From a virus (lineage: Duplodnaviria; Heunggongvirae; Uroviricota; Caudoviricetes), in the IMG/VR virus record IMGVR_UViG_2718217897_000004: 42,229 bases of DNA, one strand, 5' to 3'. The translations under genes and the position numbers were made by a program. Shown one piece after another: positions 13,105 to 27,969 of the stretch. Position 1 is the stretch's first letter, and each line of letters starts with the position of its first letter. The notes beneath the pieces are model-generated. The model was not told the origin of the DNA and searched no databases. It saw only the letters and a list, made by a program, of their open reading frames with translations.

Positions 13105-13170
13105 ATTCATCTACAATTCAGCGCAGGGCTGAACCCCTGTTGAGTAACACTGTGCCACCGGAGAAAGCCG

Positions 13171-13449
13171 ATGGCGCAAAATTCCAGACTACACAATTCT
13201 GATAATTCAGCCGTCTTTGCCAGCAGGCACGGGCGGCGTTCTCATGCATTCAAATCTGACTGGTTCCAGCACGCCCCATGCACTGAAGAACAGGCCGAAT
13301 GGCTGATTCAGTGTTACCGCAGACACGGATACGAGATTAAGAAAGCCCTCAGCCTCGATTATCGTCACTGGATAATCTCCGTCAGGCTTCCTTACTCCGA
13401 ACGCCCACCGCGTCCGTCCCGCACATTCCAGCAACGGATCTGGAGGTAA
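13171..13449 (+). CDS. Hypothetical protein
   Basis: 92-aa ORF with GGAG SD; stop overlaps the SD of the next gene. Confidence 0.45.
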   Translation: MAQNSRLHNSDNSAVFASRHGRRSHAFKSDWFQHAPCTEEQAEWLIQCYRRHGYEIKKALSLDYRHWIISVRLPYSERPPRPSRTFQQRIWR

Positions 13450-13450
13450 C

Positions 13451-14506
13451 GTGCGGGTATTACTTCGACCTGTTCTGGTACCGGAACTCGGGCTGGTGGT
13501 CCTTAAGCCCGGTCGTGAATCCATGCCGGTATTTCACAATCCTCGAGTGCTGGTGGAGCCGGAACCGAAAAGCATGCGCGGTCTGCCGTCCGGAGTCGTT
13601 CCTGCTGTTCGCCAGCCGCTGGCTGAGGATAAATCATTACTGCCATTTTTCAGCGATGAGCGGGTGATTCGTGCTGCTGGTGGTGCTGGTGCATTGTCTG
13701 ACTGGCTGTTGCGCCATATTAAATCCTGCCAGTGGCCACACGGCGATTATCATCACAGCGAAACCGTTATTCACCGATATGGTACCGGCGCAATGGTGTT
13801 GTGCTGGCACTGCGACAACCAGCTGCGTGACCAGACATCCGAATCACTCGGGCAACTTGCTCATCAAAACCTGTCAGCATGGATGATTGACGTCATCGGT
13901 CACGCAATAAGCGGTACGCAGGAGCGGGAGTTATCTCTGGCTGAATTATCCTGGTGGGCGGTCCGCAATCAGGTGGCGGACGCGCTACCGGAAGCGGTAT
14001 TACGTCGTTCGCTGGGGTTGCGTGCGGAAAAAATCCGCTCAATGTACCGTGAAAGCGACATCGTACCGGGAGAGCAGACCGCCACCAGCATACTGAAGCA
14101 GCGCACAAAAAATCTTGCGCCGCTGCCTCACGCCCACCAGCAAAACCCGCCACAGGAAGAGACGGTGGTCAGCATTGCCGTTGATCCGGAGTCACCGGCT
14201 CAGTATCTCCAGCGCCAGAAACCACAACGGGAAGAGATGCCTGTATACACGCGCTGGGTAAAAACGCAGAAATGCATGACGTGCGGTAATCAGGCAGATG
14301 ATCCGCATCACATCATTGGTCATGGACTGGGAGGGATGGGAACAAAGGCTGATGATTTGTTTGTTATTCCGCTGTGCCGTAAATGTCATAACGAACTGCA
14401 CGCCGGGGTAAAAGATTTTGAAGAAAAACACGGCAGCCAGCTGTTGTTGCTGATTCGTTTTTTAATGCACGCGAGAAATTCGGGTGTCCTGAAGTGGAAA
14501 GCATGA
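13451..14506 (+). CDS. DUF968-type protein with C-terminal HNH-like zinc-finger nuclease motif (YdfU-like)
   Basis: 351 aa, GTG start with GGAGG SD; C-terminal CMTCGNQADDPHHIIGHGLGG...CRKCHNELH motif. Confidence 0.7.
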   Translation: MRVLLRPVLVPELGLVVLKPGRESMPVFHNPRVLVEPEPKSMRGLPSGVVPAVRQPLAEDKSLLPFFSDERVIRAAGGAGALSDWLLRHIKSCQWPHGDYHHSETVIHRYGTGAMVLCWHCDNQLRDQTSESLGQLAHQNLSAWMIDVIGHAISGTQERELSLAELSWWAVRNQVADALPEAVLRRSLGLRAEKIRSMYRESDIVPGEQTATSILKQRTKNLAPLPHAHQQNPPQEETVVSIAVDPESPAQYLQRQKPQREEMPVYTRWVKTQKCMTCGNQADDPHHIIGHGLGGMGTKADDLFVIPLCRKCHNELHAGVKDFEEKHGSQLLLLIRFLMHARNSGVLKWKA

Positions 14507-14872
14507 ATGACTGAACGCATAGAATTTGTTTTGCCTTACCCGCCGACGGTGAATACCTACTGGCGACGTCATGGCAATACGTATTTCATCTCGGAGGCCG
14601 GAAAGCGTTATCGCCATGATGTGGCGCTAATTGTTCGCCAGCAGCGGTTGAAATTAAACCTGTCCGGAAGGCTGGCGATAAAGATTATTGCAGAGCCACC
14701 GGATAAGCGCCGTCGTGACCTGGACAATATCCTGAAAGCACCACTGGATGCGCTGACGCATGCCGGACTACTCATAGACGACGAGCAGTTTGATGAAATC
14801 AATATTGTGCGCGGTCAGCTCGTTCCTGGTGGGCGGCTGGGGATAAAAATCACAGAACTGGAGTGCGCATGA
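14507..14872 (+). CDS. rusA: Holliday-junction resolvase RusA
   Basis: 121-aa protein with ...TVNTYWRRHGN...DKRRRDLDNILKAPLDALTHAG... matching the RusA family; start overlaps upstream stop. Confidence 0.88.
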   Translation: MTERIEFVLPYPPTVNTYWRRHGNTYFISEAGKRYRHDVALIVRQQRLKLNLSGRLAIKIIAEPPDKRRRDLDNILKAPLDALTHAGLLIDDEQFDEINIVRGQLVPGGRLGIKITELECA

Positions 14873-15558
14873 ATAACCAGTATTTACAGTTTGTGCGTGA
14901 GCAGCTCATTATCGCCACCGCTGATTTGAGTGGGGCAACAAAAGGTCAGCTTGAAGCCTGGCAGGAGAATGCCATGTTCGATACAGGGCGTTACAGGCGA
15001 AAAAAAATCCGGTACCGCGATGAAGTGACTGGAAAAATGATAACGCGGGATAATCCACCAATCCCGGGAAAACAATCACTGGCGAATGGCTCATCAATTG
15101 CCCTAGTCAGCCCGGTTGAGTTTTCGACATCATCATGGCGGCGGGCTTTGCTGTCTCTTGAAGAGCATCATAAAGCCTGGTTGTTGTGGTGTTACGGCGA
15201 GAGTATTTGTTGGGAATATCAGATCGCGATAACACAGTGGGCGTGGAATGAATTTAATACTCAATCCGGTACCAGAAAAATTGCAGGGAAAACGCAGGAA
15301 CGCCTGAAAAAATTAATCTGGCTGGCGGCGCAGGCAGTAAAAGCAGAACTTTTTGGTGGGGAAGGTTATGAATACCAGGAGCTGGCATTACTGGCGGGAG
15401 TGACAACTAAAAACTGGTCCAAAACATTTACTCGTCACTGGGTTGCAATGAAACACATTTTTCAACGACTGGATAGTGAGGCTTTATTGTTTGTAATGAG
15501 AACACGTTCAAAACAAAAGGCGGCATTTTCAAAGCAAAGTGTTGCAAAAGTAGATTGA
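14869..15558 (+). CDS. Putative late-gene antiterminator (Q-position protein)
   Basis: 230-aa ORF between rusA and the lysis region, followed by a terminator; call is positional, no Q zinc-finger recognised. Confidence 0.45.
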   Translation: MNNQYLQFVREQLIIATADLSGATKGQLEAWQENAMFDTGRYRRKKIRYRDEVTGKMITRDNPPIPGKQSLANGSSIALVSPVEFSTSSWRRALLSLEEHHKAWLLWCYGESICWEYQIAITQWAWNEFNTQSGTRKIAGKTQERLKKLIWLAAQAVKAELFGGEGYEYQELALLAGVTTKNWSKTFTRHWVAMKHIFQRLDSEALLFVMRTRSKQKAAFSKQSVAKVD

Positions 15559-15623
15559 AAGGCATATATTTCATGCAAATCTGATATTTTGCCGATTTTG
15601 TACGTGATGGCAAAAGCAAACAA

Positions 15624-15648
15624 AACCCGCCCACAAGCGGGTTTTTTT
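15624..15648 (+). terminator. Rho-independent terminator downstream of the Q-like gene (tR'-like)
   Basis: ACCCGC-CCACAA-GCGGGT hairpin followed by TTTTTTT. Confidence 0.55.
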
Positions 15649-15731
15649 GTGCCACTTATCTCGGATAGACATGGTGAATGCGCTGGTGGAGGAAGTAAGA
15701 GTGATTTTTAACCAGTTGATTTTTTGAGTGC

Positions 15732-15760
15732 TTGCAACATTGATTTCGTAACGTTATTAT
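15732..15760 (+). promoter_or_regulatory. Sigma70-type promoter for the tRNA cluster
   Basis: TTGCAA, 17-bp spacer, TATTAT, ending 9 nt upstream of the first tRNA. Confidence 0.5.
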
Positions 15761-15769
15761 CCTGCGCCC

Positions 15770-15845
15770 GGCCCTTTAGCTCAGTGGTAAGAGCGAGCGA
15801 CTCATAATCGCCAGGTCGCTGGTTCAAATCCAGCAAGGGCCACCA
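15770..15845 (+). tRNA. tRNA with CAU anticodon, Ile2(LAU)-like (ileX/ileZ-like)
   Basis: 76 nt, acceptor GGCCCTT/AAGGGCC, anticodon loop CTCATAA; resembles recalled ileX. Confidence 0.8.
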
Positions 15846-15846
15846 G

Positions 15847-15923
15847 CCGCCACTAGCTCATCAGGAAAGAGCGTCAACCCTTTAAGTTGAGTGTGCGAGG
15901 TTCGAGTCCCCGGTGGCGATCCA
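15847..15923 (+). tRNA. tRNA-like gene of uncertain isotype (possibly degenerate)
   Basis: Cloverleaf can be drawn but with C1-A72 mismatch, one T-stem mismatch and anticodon loop CCTTTAA (C at position 33; anticodon would be UUU). Confidence 0.4.
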
Positions 15924-15925
15924 GT

Positions 15926-16001
<76 letters not shown>

Positions 16002-16004
16002 TAT

Positions 16005-16079
<75 letters not shown>

Positions 16080-16285
16080 GTTAGAGTCTTTCAGTCTGCG
16101 ATGATGGGAAATCCCGGAGTGACTGAAAGACGTTTAAGTTATGAATGATCGCTTTTTTTGCAAAATTGCTGTGCAGAAATACTAACCTTCGGGCAGGCGA
16201 TCATTCATAAGCACTCTGCTTTTATTCCGATTAACTGTGGGTGGTTTGTTGGATAGAGTGCTTCCCTTACTGTATATATCGTTTC

Positions 16286-16310
16286 GCCCGCTTTTGCGGG
16301 TTTTTCTTTT
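16286..16310 (+). terminator. Rho-independent terminator immediately upstream of the holin gene
   Basis: CCCGC-TTTT-GCGGG hairpin followed by TTTTTCTTTT. Confidence 0.5.
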
Positions 16311-16370
16311 CAAATCCCTTTCATTTCTCAGTGTAAAACTACGCCATCCGTTATTTGCGGAGGTGAGGCT

Positions 16371-16586
16371 ATGAAATCCATGGACAAAATTTCAACGGGC
16401 ATTGCCTACGGCACCTCCGCAGGCAGTGCTGGCTACTGGTTTTTACAGTGGCTTGATCAGGTCAGTCCTTCACAGTGGGCTGCGATTGGTGTACTGGGGA
16501 GTCTGGTTCTGGGCTTCCTGACTTATCTGACAAATCTGTACTTCAAAATCAGAGAAGACAAGCGTAAGGCTGCACGGGGAGAGTAA
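16371..16586 (+). CDS. Holin, phage-21 S21-type pinholin with dual-start motif
   Basis: 71-aa [53 protein letters not shown]... matches recalled S21 sequence; Met1/Met4 dual start. Confidence 0.85.
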
Positions 16587-16590
16587 TTCA

Positions 16591-16941
16591 ATGACTCAAA
16601 ACTATGAACTGATTGTGAAAGGGATCCGCAATTTTGAGAATAAAGTTACGGTAACTTTAGCGTTACGGGACAAAAAACGCTTTGACGGCGAAATTTTTGA
16701 CCTGGACATCTCGCTGGACCGTGTTGAAGGTGCCGCGCTGGAGTTTTATGAGGCAGCAGCCAGAAGGAGCATCAGACAGGTCTTCCTGGATGTTGCTGCC
16801 GGGTTATGTGAAGGGGATGAGCAGTCGCCGGAAAAGCGCCCCGTAATTTTAGAGGCGCAGAATGTGTGGATAACCTACAAAGGAAAGCTACCAGGAAGAA
16901 TTACTGGTTCTCTGAAGACTCCTCCGGAATCACAACCTTAA
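16591..16941 (+). CDS. YdfR-like uncharacterised protein inserted between holin and endolysin
   Basis: 116-aa ORF with GGAGAG SD; same position as Qin ydfR; no TM segment. Confidence 0.5.
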   Translation: MTQNYELIVKGIRNFENKVTVTLALRDKKRFDGEIFDLDISLDRVEGAALEFYEAAARRSIRQVFLDVAAGLCEGDEQSPEKRPVILEAQNVWITYKGKLPGRITGSLKTPPESQP

Positions 16942-17004
16942 GTCACTGACCGGAACAGATAAACCTGTCCGTGGGCAGAAACCGATAAATCCTGATAAAT
17001 ATCC

Positions 17005-17538
17005 ATGAACGCAATAATCAGATACGGCCTGTCGGCTGCCGTTCTGGCACTGATTGCCGTCGGTGCGCCCGCGCCTGATATTCTCGACCAGTTTCTGGAT
17101 GAAAAAGAAGGTAACCACACAACGGCATACCGCGATGGTTCCGGCATCTGGACCATCTGTCGGGGTGCCACGATGGTGGATGGAAAACCCGTTTTTCCCG
17201 GTATGAAACTGTCGAAGGAAAAATGCGACCAGGTCAACGCCATTGAGCGTGATAAGGCGCTGGCATGGGTGGAGCGCAATATTAAAGTACCACTGACCGA
17301 ACCACAAAAAGCGGGTATCGCGTCATTTTGTCCCTATAACATTGGCCCCGGTAAGTGTTTTCCATCGACGTTTTATAAGCGGCTGAATGCTGGTGATCGT
17401 AAGGGCGCATGCGAGGCGATTCGCTGGTGGATAAAAGATGGTGGGCGCGATTGCCGCATACGTTCAAATAACTGCTATGGACAGGTTATTCGTCGTGACC
17501 AGGAAAGCGCATTAGCCTGTTGGGGAATAGATCAGTGA
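17005..17538 (+). CDS. SAR endolysin (T4-lysozyme-type, glycoside hydrolase family 24)
   Basis: 177 aa; N-terminal weakly hydrophobic Ala/Gly-rich signal-anchor-release segment; E...D...T catalytic spacing ([23 protein letters not shown]). Confidence 0.85.
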
Positions 17539-18002
17539 GCAGAGTCGCCGCGATTATTTATGCTCTGGTTATCTGCATCATCGTCTGCCTGTCGTGGGCG
17601 GTCAATCATTACCGTGATAACGCCATCACCTACAAAGAACAGCGTGATAAAAAAGTCAGTGAGCTGAAGCAGCTGACCGCCACCATCGCTGACATGCAGC
17701 AGCGTCAGCGTGATGTTGCTGCGCTCGATGCAAAGTACTCGAGAGAATTAGCCAATGCGAAAGCTGAAAATGAAACTCTGCGCGCTGATGTTGCCGCTGG
17801 TCGTAAGCGCCTGCGGGTCAATGCCAGTTGCTCCGCAGCCGTGCGTGAAGCCACCGGACCCACCAGCGTGGATAATGCAACCAGCCCCAGACTGGCAGAC
17901 ACCGCTGAACGGGATTATTTCACCCTCAGAGAACGGTTGATGACGATGCAGAAGCAACTGGAAGGGGCACAGCTATACATTCGTGAGCAATGTCTCAGAT
18001 AA
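17535..18002 (+). CDS. Spanin inner-membrane subunit Rz
   Basis: GTG start overlapping endolysin stop; [34 protein letters not shown]... closely matches recalled lambda Rz. Confidence 0.85.
17755..17940 (+). CDS. Spanin outer-membrane lipoprotein Rz1, embedded in the +1 frame of Rz
   Basis: [22 protein letters not shown]...[32 protein letters not shown] matches recalled lambda Rz1; lipobox VSAC. Confidence 0.8.
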
Positions 18003-18157
18003 AAACCGGCCAAGGATAATCCGCTAAAGATTCGCCGGTGGCGAAAGAGAGCCAAGGTGTCAACCTACGCTATTACTTATGATAATGCAACAGACGAAGC
18101 GGGACATATTGGCGCATAACAAATCAGTGCAGGCTAACTGCAGGAAGAACTTAGGGC

Positions 18158-18424
18158 GTGAACGTAGAAAACCTAAGTAACGCACATTACATCTATAACG
18201 AGATGAAAGAGCTACAGCGACAGAAAGGTATACTGGAAAGTGGTGCAGGGCTTGGTGTGACAATCCAGTCTGCCTATCAATATAGTGCTTTTCTTGAGGC
18301 CATACGCCCGCATGCAGTTGCTGAACTTAACAGCCGTATTGAGGAAAAGAAATCCGCGCTGGTTAATTTGGGTGCTTCCTTCTCTATATACGAGCATAAT
18401 AAGGCGGGTTGGAAACCCGCCTAA
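18158..18424 (+). CDS. Hypothetical ORF (doubtful)
   Basis: 88-aa frame with GTG start and weak SD; its 3' end is encoded by a GC hairpin that looks like a bidirectional terminator. Confidence 0.25.
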   Translation: MNVENLSNAHYIYNEMKELQRQKGILESGAGLGVTIQSAYQYSAFLEAIRPHAVAELNSRIEEKKSALVNLGASFSIYEHNKAGWKPA

Positions 18425-18429
18425 AGCAC

Positions 18430-18969
18430 TTAGAAACTGCGTGGAGCTGTGGAAAGAATGGATGCCAGTTCTTCCTTCGATAAATCCCAGCTTCGATTTA
18501 CAGCGTCAATTTTCTTAAACTCATCAAGCATTGCGTTATAGAGATGTTCTGTACGTGAATGAGTATTGGCAATGGGCTGTTTCTGTTCGGGGAAGCGATC
18601 AATTTTCTGATATGCCTCAATGATACTGAAGTAATCGCATTCATTATGACCGTCGAAACCTGGGAGCTGAATTTCCCCATCATGTATTTTTAGATGATGG
18701 TCACGGACTAATTCTTTTTGCTCGTCATCACTAAGTTTCCTGAAAGCATTGGAAAGTCCGCGGTACATATTCAAGACAGCAGTAACAAAATCACGATCTT
18801 CTTTACTTGGTTCATCAACATCCAAATGTGAATATTCGGCCTTCATAACCCAATCATTACCAGATGACACAGCATATTTTACAAGCTGTGGATCAATATC
18901 AGTTTCGATACCTAGGTGGATGGCAATGTCACATAACAAAATGGTATTGATTTTATCCTTAATATCCAT
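18430..18969 (-). CDS. YfbU-family (UPF0304-like) protein, reverse-oriented moron between lysis and packaging modules
   Basis: 179-aa ORF on the opposite strand to all surrounding late genes; segments ...LPGFDGHNECDYFSIIEAY... and ...NAMLDEFKKID... resemble recalled YfbU. Confidence 0.55.
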   Translation of the reverse strand: MDIKDKINTILLCDIAIHLGIETDIDPQLVKYAVSSGNDWVMKAEYSHLDVDEPSKEDRDFVTAVLNMYRGLSNAFRKLSDDEQKELVRDHHLKIHDGEIQLPGFDGHNECDYFSIIEAYQKIDRFPEQKQPIANTHSRTEHLYNAMLDEFKKIDAVNRSWDLSKEELASILSTAPRSF

Positions 18970-19107
18970 GAGTTAACCCTCTGAAGTAAAAAGTAATATC
19001 TACACCCGTTAGCTCATGAAGTCTATTGATCTGGCTCATATCAGCGGCAAATCTATTTCATGGAGATACTCAATGCAGGTCACTTTTGATTTATATAAGG
19101 GCGAAAC

Positions 19108-19458
19108 ATGCCAGCACTAATCCCACGAGCCTGCCGTAAACGTGGATGTGCAGGTACAACCACAGACAGTTCTGGTTACTGCGATAAACATCGTGGCGAA
19201 GGATGGGTACAGCATCAACGCGGACTGAGCCGCCACCAGCGTGGCTATGGCTCGAAATGGGATGCCATACGTGCGCGCATACTGAAGCGTGATAATCATC
19301 TGTGTCAGAACTGCCTGCGCAATGGGAGAGCCGTTGAAGCCAGAACTGTGGACCACATCATTCCGAAAGCTCATGGTGGCACGGATGCAGACAGTAACCT
19401 GCAGAGTCTGTGCTGGCCCTGTCATAAAGCAAAAACAGCGCGCGAACGCATCAATTGA
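19108..19458 (+). CDS. HNH endonuclease (terminase-associated)
   Basis: 116 aa with CxxC...CxxC and HNH motif DHIIPKAHGGTDADSNLQSLCWPCHKAKT; immediately upstream of terminase genes. Confidence 0.85.
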   Translation: MPALIPRACRKRGCAGTTTDSSGYCDKHRGEGWVQHQRGLSRHQRGYGSKWDAIRARILKRDNHLCQNCLRNGRAVEARTVDHIIPKAHGGTDADSNLQSLCWPCHKAKTARERIN

Positions 19459-19605
19459 TAACGGTTCCCATCTGTAGGGGAGGGGCGGGTCAAATCTCTG
19501 CAACCCTGGCTGCTCAGTACCGCCGCCTGACCTTTCCTCGCATCGCCGCAGGTTCGAAAACTTTTTTTTGGAATGTGATTAAATGATTGATAGGTAAAAC
19601 CGATT

Positions 19606-20088
19606 ATGCCTGGACCCCCGAAAACCCCGCCACGCCTGCATTTGATACGAGGTAACCCCTCAAAGCGGCCAGTTAAAGACTCCAAAAAAAACGCTAAAAA
19701 GGATGAAAAAGGTCTCCCTAAAATTCCGCAACATTTAGGGGCGCAGGGGAAGTACTGGTTCAGGCGAATGGCGGAAGAACTGAATGCGGAAGGGATCATT
19801 TCTCAGCTCGATGCGCGTGCACTCGAGTTACTGGTGGAAGCCTACACCGAATACCGGCATCACTGTGAAACACTCGATGCTGAGGGTTATACCTACCGCA
19901 CGGAAACGCAGAACGGTGATGTGCTGATTAAGGCACACCCGGCTGCTGCGATGAAGGCGGATGCCTGGAAGCGGATCCGGGCGATGCTTGCAGAGTTTGG
20001 TATGTCACCGGCAAGCCGGGCGAAAGTAAATACCGCCGGACCGGATGATGTTGATCCGCTGGCGGAGCTTTTAAAAGCGAGAGACTGA
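19606..20088 (+). CDS. Terminase small subunit
   Basis: 160-aa basic N-terminus protein directly coupled (TGATG) to the large terminase ORF. Confidence 0.75.
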   Translation: MPGPPKTPPRLHLIRGNPSKRPVKDSKKNAKKDEKGLPKIPQHLGAQGKYWFRRMAEELNAEGIISQLDARALELLVEAYTEYRHHCETLDAEGYTYRTETQNGDVLIKAHPAAAMKADAWKRIRAMLAEFGMSPASRAKVNTAGPDDVDPLAELLKARD

Positions 20089-21845
20089 TGGCAAAAGTGG
20101 CTGACGGGATCCGCTACGCCGAACGTGTTATTGCAGGAGAAATTGTCGCTGGCGAATTTGTCCGTCTGGCCTGCCAGCGTTTTCTTGATGATTTGAAGTA
20201 CGGCGAAGAGCGGGGGATTTATTTCAGTGAACCCCGTGCGCAGCACATCCTGAATTTCTACAAATTTGTGCCCCATGTGAAAGGGGCGCTGGCAGGCCAG
20301 CCCATTGAGTTGATGGACTGGCATGTATTTATCCTTATTAATATTTTTGGTTTTGTCATTCCGCTGGTGAATGAAGAGACCGGGGAAGTTGTCATGCGCA
20401 GCGATGGCAGCGGACGCCCGGTGATGGTGCGCCGGTTCCGGACGGCGTACAACGAAGTCGCCCGTAAAAACGCAAAATCAACCCTGTCATCGGGTATCGG
20501 CCTGTATATGACGGGGGCAGATGGTGAAGGCGGTGCTGAGGTGTATTCAGCCGCAACCACGCGTGACCAGGCCAGAATCGTGTTTGAAGACGCCAAAAAT
20601 ATGGTCAGAAAAGCCCGGTCGACACTCGGGCGGTTGTTTGATTTCAACAAGCTGGCGATTTACCAGGAGCAGAGCGCATCAAAATTTGAACCCCTTTCCT
20701 CGGATGCAAACAACCTGGATGGTCTGAACATCCACTGCGCCATTATTGATGAGCTGCATGCACATAAAACCCGCGACGTGTGGGACGTTCTGGAAACGGC
20801 AACTGGTGCCCGTCTGCAGTCCCTTTTATTTGGTATCACCACGGCTGGCTTTAACAAGGAAGGGATTTGTTACGAGCAACGCGATTACGCCATCAAGGTA
20901 TTGCGAGGCTATAACAGCGACGTGGAGGGCGCGGTAAAAGACGACTCCTACTTTGCGATTATTTACACCCTCGATGAGGGAGATGATCCGTTTGATGAAA
21001 CGGTCTGGCAGAAAGCGAATCCCGGCCTGGGCATCTGTAAACGCTGGGATGATCTGCGTCGTCTGGCGAAAAAGGCGAAGGAGCAGGTCTCCGCGCGGGT
21101 GAATTTTTTCACAAAACACATGAATGTGTGGGTCACTGCCGAGTCTGCCTGGATGGACATGATTAAGTGGGAGAAATGCGAATACATTGCCCCACGACAT
21201 GAGCTGAAAACGTATCCCATGTGGGTCGGCGTTGACCTTGCTCATAAGATTGATATCTGTGCGGCGGCAAAACTCTGGCGAACGGATAACGGGCATGTTC
21301 ATGCCGATTTTAAATTCTGGCTCCCGGAAGGACGGCTGGAACGATGCTCGCGGCAGCAGGCAGAACTTTACCGGAAGTGGGCGGAGATGGATAAGCTGAT
21401 TCTGACGGATGGTGATGTTATCGATCATGCTCAGATAAAAAGTGACTTACTGGAATGGATTGGTGGTGAAAACCTCAGGGAACTGGGATTTGACCCGTGG
21501 AGCGCGATGCAGTTCAGCCTGGCACTGGCTGAAGAAGGGATACCACTGGTGGAGGTTCCGCAGACGGTTCGCAATCTGTCAGAGGCCATGAAGGAAACGG
21601 AATCACTGGTCTATGCCGGGCGTTTCCATCACAGCAATCATCCGGTCATGAACTGGATGATGTCTAACGTTACGGTAAAACCGGACAAAAACGACAATAT
21701 CTTCCCGAATAAATCCACGCCGGAAGCCAAAATCGACGGTCCTGTTGCGATGTTTACAGCAATGAGCCGGATGCTGGTCAATGGTGGTGAACCGGAGCCG
21801 GATCTGTCTGAACATCTGGTCAGCGTGGGCATCCGCTCACTTTAA
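20088..21845 (+). CDS. Terminase large subunit (HK97-type)
   Basis: 585-aa ORF at the canonical position with an ATPase-like N-terminal half and nuclease-like C-terminal half. Confidence 0.85.
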
Positions 21846-21856
21846 CCGAGGTCATT

Positions 21857-22039
21857 ATGTTTCTGATAATTCTCGCGCCACTGGTGGGCGTGCTGGGTGC
21901 GCTTTTGCTGGCGTATGGTGCCTGGCTGATTTATCCCCCGGCGGGTTTTGTTGTTGCCGGGGTGCTGTGCCTGCTCTGGTCGTGGCTGGTGGCGCGATAT
22001 CTCGACCGTACACAGTCGTCTGTCGGCGGAGGTAAATAG
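21857..22039 (+). CDS. Small membrane protein (two predicted TM helices)
   Basis: 60-aa ORF with GAGGT SD between terminase and portal. Confidence 0.45.
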
Positions 22040-23280
22040 TGTTCTTTTCGGGATTATTTCAACGAAAAAGTGACGCGCCGGTGACCACGCCAGCAGAACT
22101 GGCGGATGCTATCGGGCTGTCATATGACACCTATACCGGAAAGCAGATCAGCAGCCAGCGGGCCATGCGACTGACGGCGGTTTTTTCCTGCGTCAGGGTG
22201 CTGGCAGAGTCGGTCGGGATGTTGCCCTGCAATCTGTATCACCTGAACGGCAGCCTGAAACAGAGAGCCACCGGCGAACGTCTGCATAAGCTGATCTCCA
22301 CGCATCCCAATGGCTATATGACGCCGCAGGAGTTCTGGGAGCTGGTGGTCACCTGTCTGTGCCTGCGGGGAAACTTTTATGCTTACAAAGTGAAAGCATT
22401 TGGCGAAGTGGCTGAACTGCTGCCCGTCGATCCTGGCTGTGTGGTGCCGAAGCTTAACAGTAGCTGGGAGCCGGTCTATCAGGTCACATTCCCGGACGGT
22501 TCCACGGATGTGCTGACCCAGGAGGATATCTGGCATGTGCGCACGCTGACGCTGGACGGTCTGGTGGGGCTGAATCCCGTCGCCTATGCCCGCGAGGCAA
22601 TATCGCTGGCAGCGGCGACCGAAGAGCACGGGGCCAGGCTGTTCAGCAATGGTGCGGTGACGTCCGGTGTGTTGCGTACTGAACAGACGCTGTCAGATCA
22701 GGCTTATGAGCGCCTGAAGAAAGATTTTGAGGAGCGTCACACCGGGCTTGGTAATGCTCACCGCCCGATGATCCTTGAGATGGGGCTGGACTGGAAGTCG
22801 ATGGCGCTGAACGCCGAGGACAGCCAGTTTCTGGAAACCCGCAAGTTTCAGCTTGAAGAAATCTGTCGTCTGTTCCGGGTGCCGTTGCACATGGTGCAGA
22901 ACACCGATCGCGCCACCTTCAACAATATCGAAGAGCTGGGGCTCGGATTTATCAACTATTCACTGGTGCCGTATCTGACCCGCATCGAACAGCGGATCAA
23001 CACCGGACTGGTACGAAAAAGTAAGCAGGGCGTTTATTACGCCAAATTTAACGCCGGGGCGTTACTGCGCGGGGATATGAAGTCCCGTTTTGAAGCCTAC
23101 GCCACCGGGATTAACTGGGGAATTTACTCTCCCAATGACTGCCGCGACCTGGAAGATATGAATCCGCGTCCCGGTGGTGATGTCTATCTCACACCGATGA
23201 ACATGACCACGAAACCCTCCGATGGCAGTAAAGCCGGTAAGCAGAAGGATAACGCCAATGCAGACGAAACAACGTCTTGA
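22039..23280 (+). CDS. Portal protein (HK97 family)
   Basis: 413-aa ORF, GTG start with GGAGG SD, between terminase and prohead protease. Confidence 0.85.
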   Translation: MFFSGLFQRKSDAPVTTPAELADAIGLSYDTYTGKQISSQRAMRLTAVFSCVRVLAESVGMLPCNLYHLNGSLKQRATGERLHKLISTHPNGYMTPQEFWELVVTCLCLRGNFYAYKVKAFGEVAELLPVDPGCVVPKLNSSWEPVYQVTFPDGSTDVLTQEDIWHVRTLTLDGLVGLNPVAYAREAISLAAATEEHGARLFSNGAVTSGVLRTEQTLSDQAYERLKKDFEERHTGLGNAHRPMILEMGLDWKSMALNAEDSQFLETRKFQLEEICRLFRVPLHMVQNTDRATFNNIEELGLGFINYSLVPYLTRIEQRINTGLVRKSKQGVYYAKFNAGALLRGDMKSRFEAYATGINWGIYSPNDCRDLEDMNPRPGGDVYLTPMNMTTKPSDGSKAGKQKDNANADETTS

Positions 23281-23908
23281 TGTACCGCTGAGTCTGAAAT
23301 CTGTCAGTGACTCCGGTGAGTTTGAAGGGTATGGCTCCGTCTTTGGTGTAAAGGACAGCCACGATGATGTGGTGATGTCCGGGGCATTTGCTGCTTCCCT
23401 GCGGGCGTGGAGTGACAGAAAAGCGTTACCTGCGCTGCTCTGGCAGCACCGCATGGATGAACCCATCGGTGTTTACACCGAAATGAAGGAAGACGATGTC
23501 GGGCTTTACGTCAGGGGACGGTTGCTTATTGATGATGATCCCCTCGCAAAACGCGCACATGCACACATGAAGGCCGGTTCGTTAACCGGCCTTTCTATTG
23601 GGTACGTCCTGAAAGACTGGGAATACGACCGGAGCAAAGAAGCCTTTCTGCTGAAAGAAATCGACCTCTGGGAAGTCAGCCTGGTGACGTTCCCGTCTAA
23701 CGACGAGGCGCGGATCAGCGACGTCAAGAACGCACTGGCCCGCGGGGAAATCCCCGAACAGAAAAAAATCGAAAGAGTCCTGCGTGATGTCGGACTCTCC
23801 CGTACCCAGGCCAAAGAATTCATGGCCGGGGGCTATGGCGCACTGTCCCTGCGCGACGCTGAGGATGTGGGCTCTGCACTGAATGCACTGAAAAATCTGA
23901 ACTTCTAA
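23258..23908 (+). CDS. Prohead protease (HK97-type)
   Basis: About 216-aa frame from ATG 23258 overlapping portal 3' end; immediately precedes the major capsid gene. Confidence 0.8.
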   Translation: MQTKQRLDVPLSLKSVSDSGEFEGYGSVFGVKDSHDDVVMSGAFAASLRAWSDRKALPALLWQHRMDEPIGVYTEMKEDDVGLYVRGRLLIDDDPLAKRAHAHMKAGSLTGLSIGYVLKDWEYDRSKEAFLLKEIDLWEVSLVTFPSNDEARISDVKNALARGEIPEQKKIERVLRDVGLSRTQAKEFMAGGYGALSLRDAEDVGSALNALKNLNF

Positions 23909-23922
23909 TCAGGAGAAATACG

Positions 23923-25128
23923 ATGGCGGTTGATATTAAAGATGTCGAACAGGTCGCGCAGGAGCTGCAGCAGAAGTTTGACGACTTCAAGGCAAAGAAC
24001 GACAAGCGCGTGGATGCGATTGAGCAGGAAAAAGGCAAGCTTGCCGGGCAGGTGGAAACCCTGAACGGGAAACTCAGTGAGCTGGAAAATCTCAAAAGCG
24101 ACCTTGAAAAAGAGCTGCTTGAGCTGAAACGTCCGGCAGGTGGTGCGCAAAATAAACTGGCCACCGAGCATAAAGAGGCGTTTGTGGGCTTCCTGCGTAA
24201 AGGCCGTGAAGACGGTCTGCGCGATCTGGAGCGTAAGGCATTGCAGGTGGGCACCGATGAAGACGGTGGCTATGCCGTGCCGGAAGCACTGGATCGCAAC
24301 ATTCTCAACCTGCTGAAAGATGAAGTGGTGATGCGCCAGGAAGCCACGGTGATCACCGTTGGCGGTTCCGACTACAAAAAACTGGTGAATCTGGGCGGCA
24401 CGGCTTCCGGATGGGTTGGCGAGACTGACGCGCGCTCCCAGACTGCCACCTCAAAACTGGGACTGATTGAACCTTTCATGGGGGAAATCTACGGTAACCC
24501 GCAGGCCACCCAGAAAATGCTGGATGATGCCTTTTTCAACGTGGAGGCCTGGATCAACAGCGAGCTGGCAACCGAATTTGCCGAACAGGAAGAAATTGCC
24601 TTTACCACCGGCGATGGTACCAAGAAGCCGAAAGGGTTCCTGGCGTATGAATCCACTGATGAAACCGACAAGATCCGGGCGTTCGGCAAACTTCAGCATA
24701 TTGTATCCGGCGAAGCGACGGCAGTGACTGCAGATGCCATTATCAAACTGATTTACACGCTGCGTAAGGCACACCGCACCGGCGCGAAGTTCATGATGAA
24801 CAACAACAGCCTGTTTGCCATTCGTCTGCTGAAAGACACAGAGGGTAACTATCTGTGGCGTCCGGGGCTGGAGCTGGGGCAGCCGTCCTCTCTGGCGGGT
24901 TACGGTATCGCTGAAAACGAACAGATGCCGGATATTGCCGCTGATGCGAAAGCCATTGCATTTGGTAACTTCAAACGGGGTTACACCATCGTTGACCGTA
25001 TCGGTACCCGCATTCTGCGTGACCCGTACACCAATAAACCGTTTGTCGGTTTTTATACCACCAAGCGCACCGGCGGCATGCTGGTCGATTCGCAGGCCAT
25101 CAAACTGCTGAAGATTGCAGCGGCGTAA
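23923..25128 (+). CDS. Major capsid protein (HK97 fold) with N-terminal coiled-coil scaffolding-like delta domain
   Basis: 401 aa; AGGAG SD; N-terminal about 100 aa charged coiled coil followed by capsid body. Confidence 0.88.
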   Translation: MAVDIKDVEQVAQELQQKFDDFKAKNDKRVDAIEQEKGKLAGQVETLNGKLSELENLKSDLEKELLELKRPAGGAQNKLATEHKEAFVGFLRKGREDGLRDLERKALQVGTDEDGGYAVPEALDRNILNLLKDEVVMRQEATVITVGGSDYKKLVNLGGTASGWVGETDARSQTATSKLGLIEPFMGEIYGNPQATQKMLDDAFFNVEAWINSELATEFAEQEEIAFTTGDGTKKPKGFLAYESTDETDKIRAFGKLQHIVSGEATAVTADAIIKLIYTLRKAHRTGAKFMMNNNSLFAIRLLKDTEGNYLWRPGLELGQPSSLAGYGIAENEQMPDIAADAKAIAFGNFKRGYTIVDRIGTRILRDPYTNKPFVGFYTTKRTGGMLVDSQAIKLLKIAAA

Positions 25129-25135
25129 TCATTCA

Positions 25136-25160
25136 GGGGGCGCAGAAGTGCGCCCCTGTT
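25136..25160 (+). terminator. Stable hairpin after the capsid gene (attenuator or mRNA-stabilising stem)
   Basis: 8-bp GC stem GGGGCGCA/TGCGCCCC with GAAG loop; weak T-run. Confidence 0.35.
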
Positions 25161-25178
25161 CTGACAGGTGAAAGAATC

Positions 25179-25367
25179 ATGATCCTGAAACAAGATCTGA
25201 AATGGTCACCGGACGGTATGCGTGTTGAGATTATTCGGGCCGGTGAGTATGAAGATAAAGAATTACCCGAACGGGTACGCGAAATTGCCACTGCAGCTGG
25301 GATTGTCTCTGAAAAGAGAACACCTGTTGCGCGGGGGGCTGATAAGTCTAAAAAACAGCATTCATAG
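25179..25367 (+). CDS. Small hypothetical head-module protein
   Basis: 62-aa ORF between capsid and connector genes; weak SD. Confidence 0.35.
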   Translation: MILKQDLKWSPDGMRVEIIRAGEYEDKELPERVREIATAAGIVSEKRTPVARGADKSKKQHS

Positions 25368-25378
25368 AGGTTGCCCAA

Positions 25379-25684
25379 ATGATGCCCACTCTGGAAGAGC
25401 TTCGTGTTCAGTGCCGGATTGATGATGACAATGAACAGGAGAATTCTCTTCTTATGATGTATCTGGCTGCCGCCAGGGAAGAGGCTGAAAAGTTTTTAAA
25501 CCGGACGCTTTACGATGAAACTGTTTCTGAGCAGGATACGACCGGGCTTGTAATAACACCTCTGATAAAACTGCGTCTTATGCAACTGGTTGGCTACTGG
25601 TACGAGAACAGGGAAATGCAGGATGCAGTGCCTGATTTTTTCTATACCGGACTGCGGATGTATCGGTTTCATCCCGGGACATAG
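25379..25684 (+). CDS. Head-tail connector / DNA-packaging protein (gp6-like)
   Basis: 101-aa ORF with GAGGT SD in the canonical position after the capsid gene. Confidence 0.65.
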   Translation: MMPTLEELRVQCRIDDDNEQENSLLMMYLAAAREEAEKFLNRTLYDETVSEQDTTGLVITPLIKLRLMQLVGYWYENREMQDAVPDFFYTGLRMYRFHPGT

Positions 25685-25692
25685 GAGGATTC

Positions 25693-26031
25693 ATGCAGGC
25701 AGGAAGATTACGTGATCGTGTGGTTATTCTGAATGCCACCACCGTTCGGTCTCCATCAGGGCACCCTGTGGAAACAATGACGGAAGGGGCAACCATATGG
25801 GCAGAAGTTAAGGGGATCAGTGGCAGGGAGAGAATATCCGGAGGCGCAGAAACTGCTCAGGCTACAGTGAGGGTCTGGATGAGATTCCGGCGAGATGTGA
25901 CAGCAACTTCATGTCTGAAAGTGCTGACTGGCGCATTCAAAGGCGCGATTCTGAGTATAGACGGTCCGCCGATACCGGATGCCCGTGCCACCCGGCTTGA
26001 GATACTCTGTTCTCAGAAGGGGAATGTGTGA
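25693..26031 (+). CDS. Head closure / head-tail adaptor protein
   Basis: 112-aa ORF with AGGAGG SD, translationally coupled to the next gene. Confidence 0.6.
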   Translation: MQAGRLRDRVVILNATTVRSPSGHPVETMTEGATIWAEVKGISGRERISGGAETAQATVRVWMRFRRDVTATSCLKVLTGAFKGAILSIDGPPIPDARATRLEILCSQKGNV

Positions 26032-26477
26032 TGGATTTCAGTCTTGATTTTTCAGGTCTGGCGGATATTGCACGGGATCTGGAGACGCTCAGCAGGGCAG
26101 AAAACAATAAGGTGCTGCGCGATGCCACCCGTGCCGGTGCTGAAGTTATGCGGGATGCAGTTGTTGAACGTGCGCCGGAGCGAACCGGGAAACTGAAGAA
26201 AAATGTGGTTGTTCTCACTCAGCGTTCAAAGCGTCGGGGGGAAATTATCTCGGGTGTCCACATTCGTGGACGGAACCTGCGAACCGGAAACAGTGATAAC
26301 AGCATGAAAGCCAGCGATCCCCGAAATGCGTTTTACTGGCGCTTTGTGGAGCTGGGAACGATAAACATGCCCGCGCATCCGTTCATTCGCCCGGCTTTCG
26401 ATACGACAGAGGAACTGGCAGCACAGATTGCCATACAGCGAATGAATCAGGCTATTGATGAGGTCTTAAGTAAATGA
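26028..26477 (+). CDS. HK97 gp10-like tail-component protein
   Basis: 149-aa ORF coupled to its neighbours (ATGA overlaps). Confidence 0.65.
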   Translation: MMDFSLDFSGLADIARDLETLSRAENNKVLRDATRAGAEVMRDAVVERAPERTGKLKKNVVVLTQRSKRRGEIISGVHIRGRNLRTGNSDNSMKASDPRNAFYWRFVELGTINMPAHPFIRPAFDTTEELAAQIAIQRMNQAIDEVLSK

Positions 26478-26818
26478 GAGAGACCACACTGTATTCCCTG
26501 CTGTCTCAACTGGCCGGAGGACAGGTTTATCCTTATGTGGTCCCGCTGACGGAGGGAAAGCCTGCGGTATCTCCGCCATGGCTGGTGTTTTCTGTGGTGT
26601 CTGACACGGCATCTGATGTGCTTGATGGTCAGGCTGAATCAAGAATTACCGTGCAGATCGATGTCTGGGCGACAGTACCTGATGACGCAGATGATATCCG
26701 TGAGCAGGCGCTTGATGCGGTAAGGCAACTGGCACCCTCCGTTATTTCTAAAACGCAGGGTTATGATCCTGATTCCCGTCTGAGCAGAGCCACGCTTGAA
26801 TTTCAGGTAATAGCCTGA
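26474..26818 (+). CDS. Tail completion protein (gp11-like)
   Basis: 114-aa ORF followed by a terminator hairpin (26838-26862, CCCGCC-GCT-GGCGGG plus T-run). Confidence 0.6.
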   Translation: MRETTLYSLLSQLAGGQVYPYVVPLTEGKPAVSPPWLVFSVVSDTASDVLDGQAESRITVQIDVWATVPDDADDIREQALDAVRQLAPSVISKTQGYDPDSRLSRATLEFQVIA

Positions 26819-26878
26819 GATCGTTAATGATTTTACCCACCCGCCGCTGGCGGGTTTTTTTATTTTCAGGAGACGAGT

Positions 26879-27583: not shown

Positions 27584-27597
27584 TGAGGATAGATGTG

Positions 27598-27969
27598 ATG
27601 ACTAAAAATATCCGTAATCTGGCACTGGCAACGATGTCGGGGTTTCGCCATAAAACTGTTGATGTGCATGAATGGGAAGGGGCAACGGTTGTATTACGGG
27701 AACCTTCTGCAGAAGCCTGGTTGCGCTGGCAGGAGATCGTTAAAGCAAAAGATGATGAGACACCGTTATCCGTTGCGGAGCGCGCCCGCCGAAATCTGGA
27801 GGCAGATGTTGAACTGTTCATTGATGTTCTGTGTAATACCGGACTGCAACCTGTATTTTCAGAGGATGATCGTGAACAGGTGATTGCCGTGTATGGCCCG
27901 GTGCATGCGCGGCTTCTTCGGCAGTCTCTGGAACTGATCAGTGATGCCGGTGAGGTTAAAAAAAAGTAG
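27598..27969 (+). CDS. Tail assembly chaperone (lambda G-like)
   Basis: Frame ends ...GTT AAA AAA AAG TAG with a slippery A7G run just before the stop. Confidence 0.7.
   Translation: MTKNIRNLALATMSGFRHKTVDVHEWEGATVVLREPSAEAWLRWQEIVKAKDDETPLSVAERARRNLEADVELFIDVLCNTGLQPVFSEDDREQVIAVYGPVHARLLRQSLELISDAGEVKKK

What the first reader, a model, noticed from the sequence alone, without database searches (positions are those of the whole stretch)
18003..19107. Reverse-oriented YfbU-family gene at the post-lysis moron position
Between Rz/Rz1 and the HNH-terminase block, where lambdoid phages commonly carry host-interaction or exclusion cargo (lambda has bor here), sits a 179-aa YfbU/UPF0304-like gene on the opposite strand to every neighbouring late gene. 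A convergent GC hairpin lies at its 3' end. The YfbU family has no established function and I know of no described phage role. A doubtful 88-aa ORF converges on it.
Basis: partly seen in the sequence, partly recalled or inferred. Interest (0 to 1): 0.6.

Follow-up and report, generated by a model that had tools for sequence, protein, structure and literature searches.

The report
Prophage YfbU-fold moron, likely anti-phage
A lambdoid E. coli prophage carries, backwards between its lysis and DNA-packaging genes, a self-contained gene for a YfbU-fold protein whose only functionally tested relative of similar size is a single-gene abortive-infection phage defence (Kamadhenu), so it is most likely a lysogen-expressed defence gene, but this has not been tested.

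Summary

Two corrections:
- The "doubtful" 88-aa ORF is a real, widespread phage gene (phrog_5415, normally 76 aa). It is the last gene of the lysis cassette, here lengthened by loss of its stop codon, and it is inherited independently of the YfbU-like gene.
- A phage-related role for this fold has been published. Kamadhenu (2024) is a 180-aa single-gene abortive-infection system from Lactococcus plasmids. Phages escape it by mutating their single-strand annealing protein.

The gene is not an orthologue of chromosomal yfbU. It belongs to a mobile "long-form" (~180 aa) branch. It is a classic moron:
- it has low GC and its own ribosome-binding site and terminator;
- it is under purifying selection;
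- the slot is empty or holds bor in sister phages.

In all 51 viral contigs and 5 further prophage contexts it sits between lysis and terminase genes, always antisense. About 4% of complete E. coli genomes carry it.

Best reading: a lysogen-expressed, Kamadhenu-like defence gene (about 0.5). Novelty: new member of a known kind. Direct comparison with Kamadhenu's sequence was not possible.

The parts
18430..18969 (-). YfbU-fold ('long-form' YfbU-like) gene, 179 aa. It is the cargo gene of the moron. This allele has H108 where relatives have N in the hallmark GFDGNNE motif.
18402..18422 (-). Intrinsic-terminator-like hairpin (GGCGGGUU-UCC-AACCCGCC followed by UUAUUAU) just after the YfbU-like stop codon. 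It lies inside the last codons of the 88-aa ORF.
   Evidence: It folds at -16.2 kcal/mol, z -3.4. The Klebsiella homologue keeps the hairpin through compensatory stem changes. Most of the other lineages compared have their own different GC hairpin, generally followed by a T-rich stretch, after the stop codon. The simple terminator scan did not list it.
18970..19107 (-). Upstream region of the YfbU-like gene. The Shine-Dalgarno sequence AGAGGG lies at 18982-18977, 7 nt before the ATG. A candidate weak sigma-70 promoter has its -35 TTCATG at 19020-19015, a 16-nt spacer, and its -10 TATTAC at 18998-18993.
   Evidence: The sequence was read. The same positions read TTAACA/TATTAA and TTAACG/TATTAT, each with an extended -10 TG, in homologues L140 and L145. 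The generic promoter scan found nothing on this strand, so the promoter is inferred and not shown.
18158..18424 (+). An 88-aa gene of family phrog_5415, in late-operon orientation. It is a separate, independently inherited gene that normally encodes 76 aa. Here the TAA stop at 18386-18388 has been lost (it reads ATA), which adds 12 codons that run through the hairpin.
   Evidence: phrog_5415 matches at E 2e-38, and 276 related clusters were found. The gene overlaps the spanin stop codon and occurs without a YfbU-like gene in E. coli loci L016-L018. It occurs with one in Klebsiella loci L013-L015. The stop-codon loss and the end of homology are shown. The AF2 model is a two-helix hairpin with pLDDT 78 and has no significant PDB match.
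18003..18157 (.). A 155-bp spacer between the Rz stop codon and the 88-aa gene. No feature was identified in it.
   Evidence: Homology to sister phages stops at the Rz stop codon. Rfam gives no match.
17520..18002 (+). Left flank: the Rz spanin gene, with Rz1 embedded at 17755-17940. This is the end of the lysis cassette.
   Evidence: Pfam Phage_lysis matches at E 1.6e-49. The Rz1 ORF has a lipobox.
19108..19458 (+). Right flank: the HNH endonuclease gene that opens the HNH / P27-type terminase block.
   Evidence: Pfam HNH matches at E 1.9e-16. The annotation of the identical DNA is given.

Best explanation
The locus is a moron: a self-contained, horizontally acquired transcription unit made of a weak promoter, a ribosome-binding site, one gene and a terminator. 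It is inserted antisense to the late operon of a lambdoid prophage, between the lysis cassette and the terminase genes. It encodes a soluble 179-aa protein with the two-domain helical YfbU fold. The protein belongs to a mobile 'long-form' branch of the YfbU family and not to the chromosomal yfbU orthologues.

Most likely mechanism: the gene is expressed from the resident prophage and acts like Kamadhenu, the 180-aa single-gene YfbU-fold abortive-infection system of lactococcal plasmids. In that picture it detects a product or activity of a superinfecting phage's recombination machinery, and it then stops that infection or the infected cell, which protects the lysogen population. When the prophage itself is induced, Q-antiterminated late transcription would run antisense across the gene and could lower its expression. 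That would be a simple form of self-protection.

Shown here: the gene is real, has the YfbU fold, belongs to the long-form branch, has moron anatomy, is under purifying selection, occupies a strictly conserved position and orientation, and is variably present.

Inferred: expression in lysogens, anti-phage function, the trigger, the way it kills or blocks, and antisense silencing.
For: Family and fold:
- Pfam YfbU scores above threshold.

Distinct mobile branch:
- The NCBIfam yfbU equivalog scores 33.8 against a cutoff of 90.
- The window protein scores 147.6 bits on the long-form profile, against 57.6 for K-12 YfbU.
- The profile of the window's close relatives (A1) found 909 cluster representatives across the YfbU family, most of the best 150 being 165-200 aa long, in many phyla. 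They occur on plasmids and in a Yersinia P2-like phage.

Functional precedent:
- Escape mutations map to G22 of a Sak-like single-strand annealing protein, and phage DNA replication, transcription and translation are unaffected.

Moron anatomy:
- GC is 0.36-0.42 in the module against 0.50-0.55 in the flanks.
- The terminator hairpin is conserved through compensatory changes, and the Shine-Dalgarno sequence is strong.

Variable cargo slot:
- It is empty in phi467 and holds bor in vB_EcoS-640R1.
- A Ser/Thr kinase and PP2C phosphatase pair sits beside the homologue in L005.

Position and orientation:
- All 51 IMG/VR contigs with a relative (47-100% identity) place it between terminase-side and lysis-side markers, antisense to both. 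At least 7 different flank combinations occur.
- The same holds in L005-L015, L022 and L104.

Selection and prevalence:
- dN/dS is 0.14 and 0.05 in the two pairs that could be measured, and all seven full-length genes compared keep exactly 540 nt.
- 224 of 5426 complete E. coli genomes carry it, in at least two different prophage backbones.

Weak guilt by association in the wider family:
- An FRG / PADLOC PDC-S15 protein is adjacent in 5 of 79 loci.
- An Abi family gene is next to it on an Acinetobacter plasmid.
Against: - No experiment or transcript data bears on this gene.
- Kamadhenu's sequence could not be obtained, so similarity to it rests only on shared Pfam family, fold and size. Kamadhenu could lie nearer to canonical YfbU than to this branch.
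- PADLOC (2023) has no model that matches.
- The neighbourhoods of 150 genes around long-form relatives are heterogeneous and show no strong defence-island signal.
- The promoter is weak by consensus and the generic scan did not detect it.
- The window's allele has H108 at a position that is N in 96% of 194 family members and in every close relative. This particular copy could therefore be altered or impaired.
- YfbU-fold proteins have no known biochemical activity, so the effector step is a blank.
Confidence: 0.5

Rival explanations
1. The gene modulates host physiology or cell death and is not a defence gene. The phage YfbU-like protein would interfere with, or substitute for, the host YfbU/MazEF-linked death pathway that responds to DNA damage. 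The effect could be to keep the SOS-induced host alive long enough for prophage development, or to change the lysogen's stress tolerance.
For: E. coli yfbU deletion mutants survive MazF-dependent killing after DNA damage (PMC2646832). Prophage induction is itself a response to DNA damage (established knowledge). The protein shares the fold of host YfbU. The same slot holds bor in a sister phage, and bor is known as a host-fitness gene (established knowledge).
Against: The protein is only 17% identical to host YfbU over the structural alignment, and BLASTP gives no alignment better than E 0.036. Mixed oligomers or mimicry are therefore doubtful. The long-form branch also occurs in phyla without canonical yfbU, on plasmids and with other partner genes. 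Its only tested relative is an anti-phage gene.
Confidence: 0.15
2. The gene is an accessory function of the phage's own lytic cycle. It would act as a regulator or helper of lysis timing, cos cleavage or packaging, as its position between Rz and the HNH-terminase genes might suggest.
For: It sits next to lysis and terminase genes in every prophage context examined.
Against: It is always antisense to the late operon. It is absent from closely related phages that have the same Rz, HNH and terminase genes. It occurs beside four or more unrelated terminase types and several lysis cassettes. BFVD holds only one viral structure with this fold, and a close homologue sits on a conjugative plasmid.
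Confidence: 0.07
3. The 88-aa ORF and the YfbU-like gene form a convergent two-gene module of the toxin-antitoxin or sensor-effector kind.
For: The two genes converge on a shared hairpin in the window. They also travel together in E. coli and Klebsiella prophages, in 35 of 51 viral contigs.
Against: The 76-aa gene occurs without a YfbU-like gene, translationally coupled to the spanin gene (L016-L018). The YfbU-like gene occurs without it in at least six other flank contexts. Homology between carriers and non-carriers ends exactly at the 76-aa gene's stop codon. The overlap with the hairpin in the window is a secondary effect of the stop-codon loss.
Confidence: 0.03
4. The gene is a selfish or neutral passenger with no function in this allele. 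The N108H substitution in the hallmark motif may have inactivated it.
For: H108 replaces an N that is 96% conserved. The H108 allele could have spread clonally with its prophage: 72 genomes carry the module at >=99% identity.
Against: The family as a whole is under strong purifying selection and keeps an exact length. The ORF, the Shine-Dalgarno sequence and the terminator are intact. N-to-H is a conservative polar change that need not abolish function.
Confidence: 0.1

Closest known systems
Kamadhenu (Lactococcus plasmid pUCCL624_130; Grafakou et al. 2024, PMC11381338; Mosterd et al. 2025, PMC12184496)
   Different: The hosts differ (Gram-positive against Enterobacteriaceae), as do the vehicles (plasmid against lambdoid prophage late region). 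Sequence relatedness could not be measured because Kamadhenu's sequence was not retrievable. Kamadhenu's phenotype (abortive infection, escape through a Sak-like annealing protein) has been demonstrated, whereas nothing has been tested for the prophage gene.
E. coli chromosomal YfbU (b2294; PDB 1WPB, 4LR3)
   Different: Identity is 17%. YfbU is 164 aa against 179. The NCBIfam equivalog score is far below its cutoff (33.8 against 90). YfbU is a core gene between hxpA and yfbV, not a mobile one. YfbU lacks the N-terminal LCDI...GN-W motif of the long-form branch.
Lambda bor and other late-region morons (lom; the Stk kinase of 933W). The anatomy of these genes is stated from established knowledge.
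   Same: All occupy the same kind of slot just after Rz/Rz1 and lie in reverse orientation to the late operon. All have their own expression signals and are variably present among related phages. A reversed bor occupies this very slot in vB_EcoS-640R1.
   Different: The proteins are unrelated. Bor is an outer-membrane lipoprotein that affects serum resistance, whereas this is a cytoplasmic helical protein.
Prophage-encoded single-protein abortive-infection systems, such as BstA (PMC8585504) and Tha (PMC11087260)
   Same: The concept is the same: a gene expressed from a resident prophage blocks superinfecting phages and needs a way to spare its own phage on induction.
   Different: There is no sequence or fold relationship. 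BstA uses an anti-BstA DNA element for self-immunity. Here only a hypothetical antisense-transcription mechanism is proposed.

Membership tests
Pfam PF03887 YfbU domain family | HMM score at or above the gathering threshold | tested here: met
   The score is 44.1 bits against a cutoff of 25, at E 3e-11, over residues 47-172.
Pfam PF03887 YfbU domain family | Two-domain helical YfbU fold, as in 1WPB | tested here: met
Pfam PF03887 YfbU domain family | Hallmark conserved residues (W40, G104-F-D-G-N-N-E110, N135-S/T-H137, Y144) | tested here: met
   All are present except N108, which is H in this allele. N108 is 96% conserved among 194 members.
Canonical YfbU orthologues (NCBIfam NF003936 / PRK05445 equivalog) | Score at or above the equivalog cutoff | tested here: not met
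   The score is 33.8 bits against a cutoff of 90.
Canonical YfbU orthologues (NCBIfam NF003936 / PRK05445 equivalog) | Core chromosomal context (hxpA-yfbU-yfbV) and a length of about 164 aa | tested here: not met
   The K-12 context is shown. The window gene is 179 aa and lies in a prophage late region.
Kamadhenu anti-phage system | Single-gene system with no obligatory partner | tested here: met
   No neighbour is conserved across the flank contexts. The 88-aa gene is inherited independently.
Kamadhenu anti-phage system | A protein of about 180 aa made up only of a YfbU fold or domain | tested here: met
Kamadhenu anti-phage system | Significant sequence similarity to the Kamadhenu protein itself | not testable with these tools
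   No supplementary file with the sequence is held. No Lactococcus record appeared among the listed hits in four plasmid tblastn searches or in a profile search of the protein collection.
Kamadhenu anti-phage system | Confers phage resistance with an abortive-infection phenotype, escaped by mutations in the phage annealing protein | not testable with these tools
   This needs plaque, efficiency-of-centre-of-infection, survival and escape-mutant experiments.
Moron (autonomous cargo transcription unit in a prophage) | Own terminator downstream of the gene | tested here: met
   The hairpin folds at -16.2 kcal/mol (z -3.4) and is followed by a U-rich tail. It is conserved through compensatory changes, and most of the other lineages compared have analogous hairpins after the stop codon.
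Moron (autonomous cargo transcription unit in a prophage) | Own promoter upstream of the gene | tested here: inconclusive
   Only a weak -35/-10 candidate was found, although its position is conserved in L140 and L145. The consensus scan found nothing on this strand.
Moron (autonomous cargo transcription unit in a prophage) | Present or absent among otherwise related phages, with atypical base composition | tested here: met
   The slot is empty in phi467 and holds bor in 640R1. GC is 0.36-0.42 against 0.50-0.55 in the flanks.
Convergent toxin-antitoxin-like pair with the 88-aa ORF | Obligate co-occurrence of the two genes | tested here: not met
   Each gene occurs without the other.
Two-gene 'TM-protein + long-form YfbU' operon (seen here in 29 of 79 genome loci) | A gene for a protein of about 166 aa with an N-terminal transmembrane helix, immediately upstream on the same strand | tested here: not met
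   Upstream of the window gene is the divergent HNH gene, and no such ORF is present.

The most novel reading that the evidence does not exclude
The YfbU fold would be a widespread sensing module for infection or DNA damage that cells and mobile elements couple to different outputs. Four arrangements would express this: stand-alone copies (this prophage moron and Kamadhenu), pairing with a single-pass membrane protein (29 of 79 genome loci), pairing with FRG / PDC-S15 proteins, and fusion to ribbon-helix-helix DNA-binding domains. Chromosomal E. coli YfbU, the MazF 'death protein', would then be the domesticated core version of the same module. On this reading the prophage gene gives a tractable E. 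coli and lambda-family model for finding out what the fold senses, possibly phage annealing proteins or recombination intermediates, and how a protein with no enzymatic domain stops an infection.
Probability: 0.25. Interest if true: 0.7.

Novelty: new member of a known kind. Interest (0 to 1): 0.45.

Why it matters
If the gene is a Kamadhenu-type defence, about 4% of complete E. coli genomes, including clinical lineages, and many Klebsiella, Enterobacter and Citrobacter prophages carry a phage-resistance gene that the PADLOC release tested here (v2.0.0) does not detect. A 2026 survey lists Kamadhenu among systems absent from both the PADLOC and DefenseFinder databases. That bears on predicting phage-therapy host range.

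It would also move an uncharacterised defence from Lactococcus into the best genetic system available, E. coli with lambdoid phages. There the trigger, the killing or blocking step and the self-protection of the carrier prophage can all be dissected. It could finally attach a biochemical role to the YfbU/UPF0304 fold, whose structure has been in the PDB since 2004.

The strict placement between lysis and terminase genes, always antisense, across unrelated packaging modules is a useful rule for finding further cargo genes in prophages.

Tried and rejected
1. Finding Kamadhenu's sequence failed.
   - No supplement is held for the paper.
   - tblastn of PLSDB was run with the window protein, a Pectinatus homologue, a family consensus and an Enterococcus plasmid YfbU.
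   - A profile search of 5.8 billion proteins was run with AT-rich family members, and cluster names were looked up.
   - None of these listed a Lactococcus protein.
3. A PDB sequence hit to a designed stathmin-like repeat protein (4f61_I) was rejected as helical-repeat noise. It covers only residues 14-60 of the query and recurs in each repeat of that repetitive designed protein.
4. PADLOC gave no hit for the window proteins or for other YfbU-family members.
5. A defence-island test on 150 neighbours of long-form relatives gave heterogeneous contexts, with only scattered integrase, TIR and FRG hits. It does not count as support.
6. Rfam found no RNA family in 17800-19300.
7. The structure of the 88-aa protein is a generic helix hairpin with no informative PDB match.
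8. I first took the window to be the ybhC-site prophage of NZ_CP033884 because bases 17900-19200 are 100% identical. A whole-window comparison showed the backbone is instead the mtfA / tRNA-Ser-site prophage type of strain LR-60. The late-region module is shared between both backbones.
9. A link between carrying the gene and the prophage's own annealing protein could not be established. One carrier encodes RecT. The window prophage shows only an ExoVIII-like exonuclease among the ten early-region ORFs that were scanned.

Full report
**What is at the coordinates**

The window is a lambdoid prophage. Bases 1-6003 are 99% identical to the mtfA / tRNA-Ser / integrase / exonuclease / dicB region of E. 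coli LR-60, and bases 13150-28214 match that prophage's Q-lysis-head region. Pfam scans identify an integrase, an ExoVIII-like exonuclease, a CI-like repressor, replication genes and Q. Four tRNA genes lie at 15770-16079.

The late genes all read on the + strand:
- P21-type holin, 16371-16586
- DUF1327 gene, 16591-16941
- lysozyme, 17005-17538
- Rz, 17520-18002, with embedded Rz1
- HNH endonuclease, 19108-19458
- P27-type small terminase, 19606-20088
- large terminase, 20088-21845

Between Rz and HNH lie an 88-aa ORF (18158-18424, +) and a 179-aa ORF (18430-18969, -). The two converge on a GC hairpin at 18402-18422. The observation as written is correct.

**The 179-aa protein**

- It passes the Pfam YfbU threshold (44.1 bits against 25).
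- It matches PHROG 6084, annotated "unknown function", end to end.
- NCBI's pipeline already names it "YfbU family protein" in hundreds of genomes.
- An AlphaFold model built on 27 homologues is confident (pLDDT 85).

It is not an orthologue of chromosomal yfbU:
- The NCBIfam equivalog scores 33.8 against a cutoff of 90.
- BLASTP to K-12 YfbU gives no alignment better than E 0.036.
- K-12 yfbU sits among housekeeping genes.

A profile search of 1.84 billion cluster representatives found 909 relatives, most of the best 150 being 165-200 aa long. On a profile built only from distant members of that set, the window protein scores 147.6 bits and K-12 YfbU 57.6. I call this the long-form branch. 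Its hallmarks are an N-terminal LCDI...GN-W motif, a GFDGNNE motif and an N-S/T-H motif.

**The unit is an autonomous, selected, mobile cargo gene**

- GC falls to 0.36-0.42 across the module, against 0.50-0.55 in the flanks.
- A good Shine-Dalgarno sequence (AGAGGG) lies 7 nt before the ATG.
- The hairpin folds at -16.2 kcal/mol (z -3.4) and is followed by UUAUUAU on the gene's own strand.
- The Klebsiella homologue keeps this hairpin through compensatory stem changes. Most of the more distant lineages compared have a different GC hairpin, generally followed by a T-rich stretch, at the same place.
- The promoter is only a weak candidate. Its -35 and -10 positions are conserved in two diverged lineages, but the generic scan did not report it.
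- dN/dS is 0.14 (window against Klebsiella) and 0.05 (L005 against L104). Synonymous sites are saturated in most of the more distant pairs, and all seven full-length genes compared keep exactly 540 nt.

**Position and distribution**

Sister phages with the same Rz and HNH genes have the slot empty (phi467) or filled with a reversed bor (vB_EcoS-640R1). Homology breaks at the Rz stop codon and at the HNH start.

The module is in 224 of 5426 complete E. coli genomes, always on the chromosome. It occurs in at least two prophage backbones, one at the ybhC site and one at the mtfA / tRNA-Ser site.

All 51 IMG/VR viral contigs that encode a relative (47-100% identity) place the gene between terminase-side and lysis-side markers and antisense to both. 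Forty-seven have both flanks, four have one, and none contradicts the pattern. The flanks include HNH/P27, Nu1, DUF1441+GpA and Terminase_2 packaging modules and several lysis cassettes.

The same arrangement holds in assemblies of Superficieibacter, Enterobacter and Klebsiella and in two assemblies of unidentified source. One close homologue sits on a conjugative Kosakonia plasmid. In deposited phage genomes the fold is rare: three distinct phages in INPHARED and one significant BFVD structure.

**The 88-aa ORF**

It is a real gene, not a doubtful one. It matches phrog_5415. A further 276 protein clusters match it; those aligned are 74-86% identical and are usually 76 aa long.

In E. coli loci L016-L018 it overlaps the spanin stop codon and is followed by other genes with no YfbU-like gene. 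In Klebsiella it precedes the YfbU-like gene. Alignment shows that carriers and non-carriers diverge exactly at its stop codon. In the window that TAA has become ATA, which adds 12 codons that read through the hairpin.

It is therefore a late-operon gene of unknown function that happens to abut the moron. It is not a partner. The model is a helix hairpin with no informative structural match.

**What the family is known to do**

Three papers are relevant.
- Amitai et al. 2009 reported that MazF induces YfbU synthesis and that a yfbU deletion mutant survives MazF-dependent killing after DNA damage (PMC2646832).
- Grafakou et al. 2024 found Kamadhenu, a 180-aa single-gene YfbU-fold protein on a lactococcal plasmid. 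It gives strong phage resistance with an abortive-infection phenotype (PMC11381338).
- Mosterd et al. 2025 showed that escape phages carry a change at G22 of their Sak-like single-strand annealing protein. A 2026 review notes that phage DNA replication, transcription and translation are unaffected.

As of mid-2026, Kamadhenu is listed among systems absent from the PADLOC and DefenseFinder databases. PADLOC gives no hit here.

**Mechanism proposed**

The anatomy matches lysogen-expressed morons such as bor: reverse orientation, own signals, low GC and variable presence. The only functionally tested protein of this size and fold is an anti-phage gene.

I therefore think the most likely role is a prophage-borne, Kamadhenu-like block to superinfecting phages, at about 0.5 probability.

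Domain-architecture evidence suggests the YfbU fold is a constant sensing or adaptor module joined to variable outputs:
- In 29 of 79 genome loci a conserved gene for a protein of about 166 aa with an N-terminal transmembrane helix lies immediately upstream in the same operon.
- In 5 of 79 loci an FRG / PADLOC PDC-S15 protein is adjacent.
- 21 of the top 150 representatives are about 226-242 aa long and carry an N-terminal extension of about 55 aa. In the one clear case tested this extension scores as a CopG-type ribbon-helix-helix domain (E 5.5e-5).

How a stand-alone copy stops an infection is unknown. Sequestering a phage recombination protein, or toxic oligomerisation, are guesses.

Because late transcription from the Q-modified polymerase must cross the gene antisense, the carrier phage may silence it during its own induction. 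This is inference only.

**Caveats**

- Kamadhenu's sequence could not be retrieved, so the link rests on family, fold, size and single-gene architecture.
- Gene neighbourhoods of distant relatives show no strong defence-island signal.
- The window's allele has H108 where 96% of family members, and all close relatives including the commoner E. coli allele, have N.
- Nothing here shows expression.

**Verdict**

This is a real YfbU-fold moron that databases already name but that nobody has characterised. It is best filed as a new, enterobacterial, prophage-borne member of the kind defined by Kamadhenu, with its function still to be tested. Interest is moderate (0.45). It is not categorically new, but it offers a tractable model for a defence and a protein fold whose mechanisms are both unknown.

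Noticed in passing
window 18646-18648 (codon 108 of the minus-strand gene 18430-18969): The window allele has His at position 108 of the hallmark GFDGNNE motif. Asn is found there in 96% of 194 long-form family members and in all close relatives. These include the commoner E. coli allele, which differs from the window allele only by M42I, E99A and H108N. The window allele may be altered or impaired.
   Followed up: partly
window 18386-18388: The usual TAA stop of the 76-aa phrog_5415 gene reads ATA here. The ORF therefore extends 12 codons through the terminator hairpin of the opposing gene. The 88-aa form is common in E. coli.
   Followed up: yes
L030-L096 (29 of 79 genome loci), for example L054:7469-7969: Many distant long-form YfbU genes are preceded in the same operon by a conserved gene for a protein of about 166 aa. 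That protein has one N-terminal transmembrane helix and no Pfam match. This looks like an undescribed two-gene system. A similar 170-aa gene precedes the YfbU gene on a Raoultella IncFII plasmid (L021:5486-5998).
   Followed up: partly
L036, L057, L078, L090, L091: FRG-domain proteins that match the PADLOC candidate system PDC-S15 (up to E 5.7e-82) lie directly next to YfbU-like genes on the same strand.
   Followed up: partly
P0098, P0100 and about 20 other representatives of 226-242 aa: Some YfbU-domain proteins carry an N-terminal extension of about 55 aa. In P0100 this extension scores as a CopG-type ribbon-helix-helix DNA-binding domain.
   Followed up: partly
L005:6990-8488 and L005:10538-11170: In a Superficieibacter prophage the same lysis-terminase slot also holds a Ser/Thr kinase and PP2C phosphatase pair next to the YfbU-like gene. 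A HicAB toxin-antitoxin pair sits before the holin.
   Followed up: no
L158:3725-4243 and 148 Enterococcus plasmids carrying it at >=99% identity (270 Enterococcus records matched in all): A 172-aa YfbU family gene, flanked by IS1216 copies in the plasmid examined (L158), is very common on Enterococcus faecium and E. faecalis plasmids. It is closer to canonical YfbU (30% identity) than to the window protein (24%).
   Followed up: no
L019:593-2620 (Acinetobacter lwoffii 8-kb plasmid): A YfbU family gene lies about 0.5 kb from an annotated Abi family gene on a small mobilizable plasmid. An 81-aa ORF lies just upstream of the YfbU gene.
   Followed up: no
window 15770-16079: Four tRNA genes (Met-CAT, Lys-TTT, Thr-TGT, Gly-TCC) lie between Q and the holin. 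The two other prophages that carry the same YfbU module have different tRNA sets at this place (Asn and Thr in L001; Ile and Thr in L106).
   Followed up: no
window 16325-21784 compared with L001 and L106: The lysis / 88-aa / YfbU / HNH / terminase block is shared at 98-100% identity by prophages with different early regions and integration sites (ybhC against mtfA / tRNA-Ser). The cargo therefore travels with the late-region mosaic block. In LR-60 the prophage integrase is frameshifted but the YfbU-like gene is intact.
   Followed up: partly
L020:4956-5534 (Yersinia phage vB_YenM_324): A P2-like Yersinia phage encodes a long-form YfbU protein. It is 31% identical to the window protein and scores 231 bits on the long-form profile. 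It lies among non-structural accessory genes near the end of the record.
   Followed up: no
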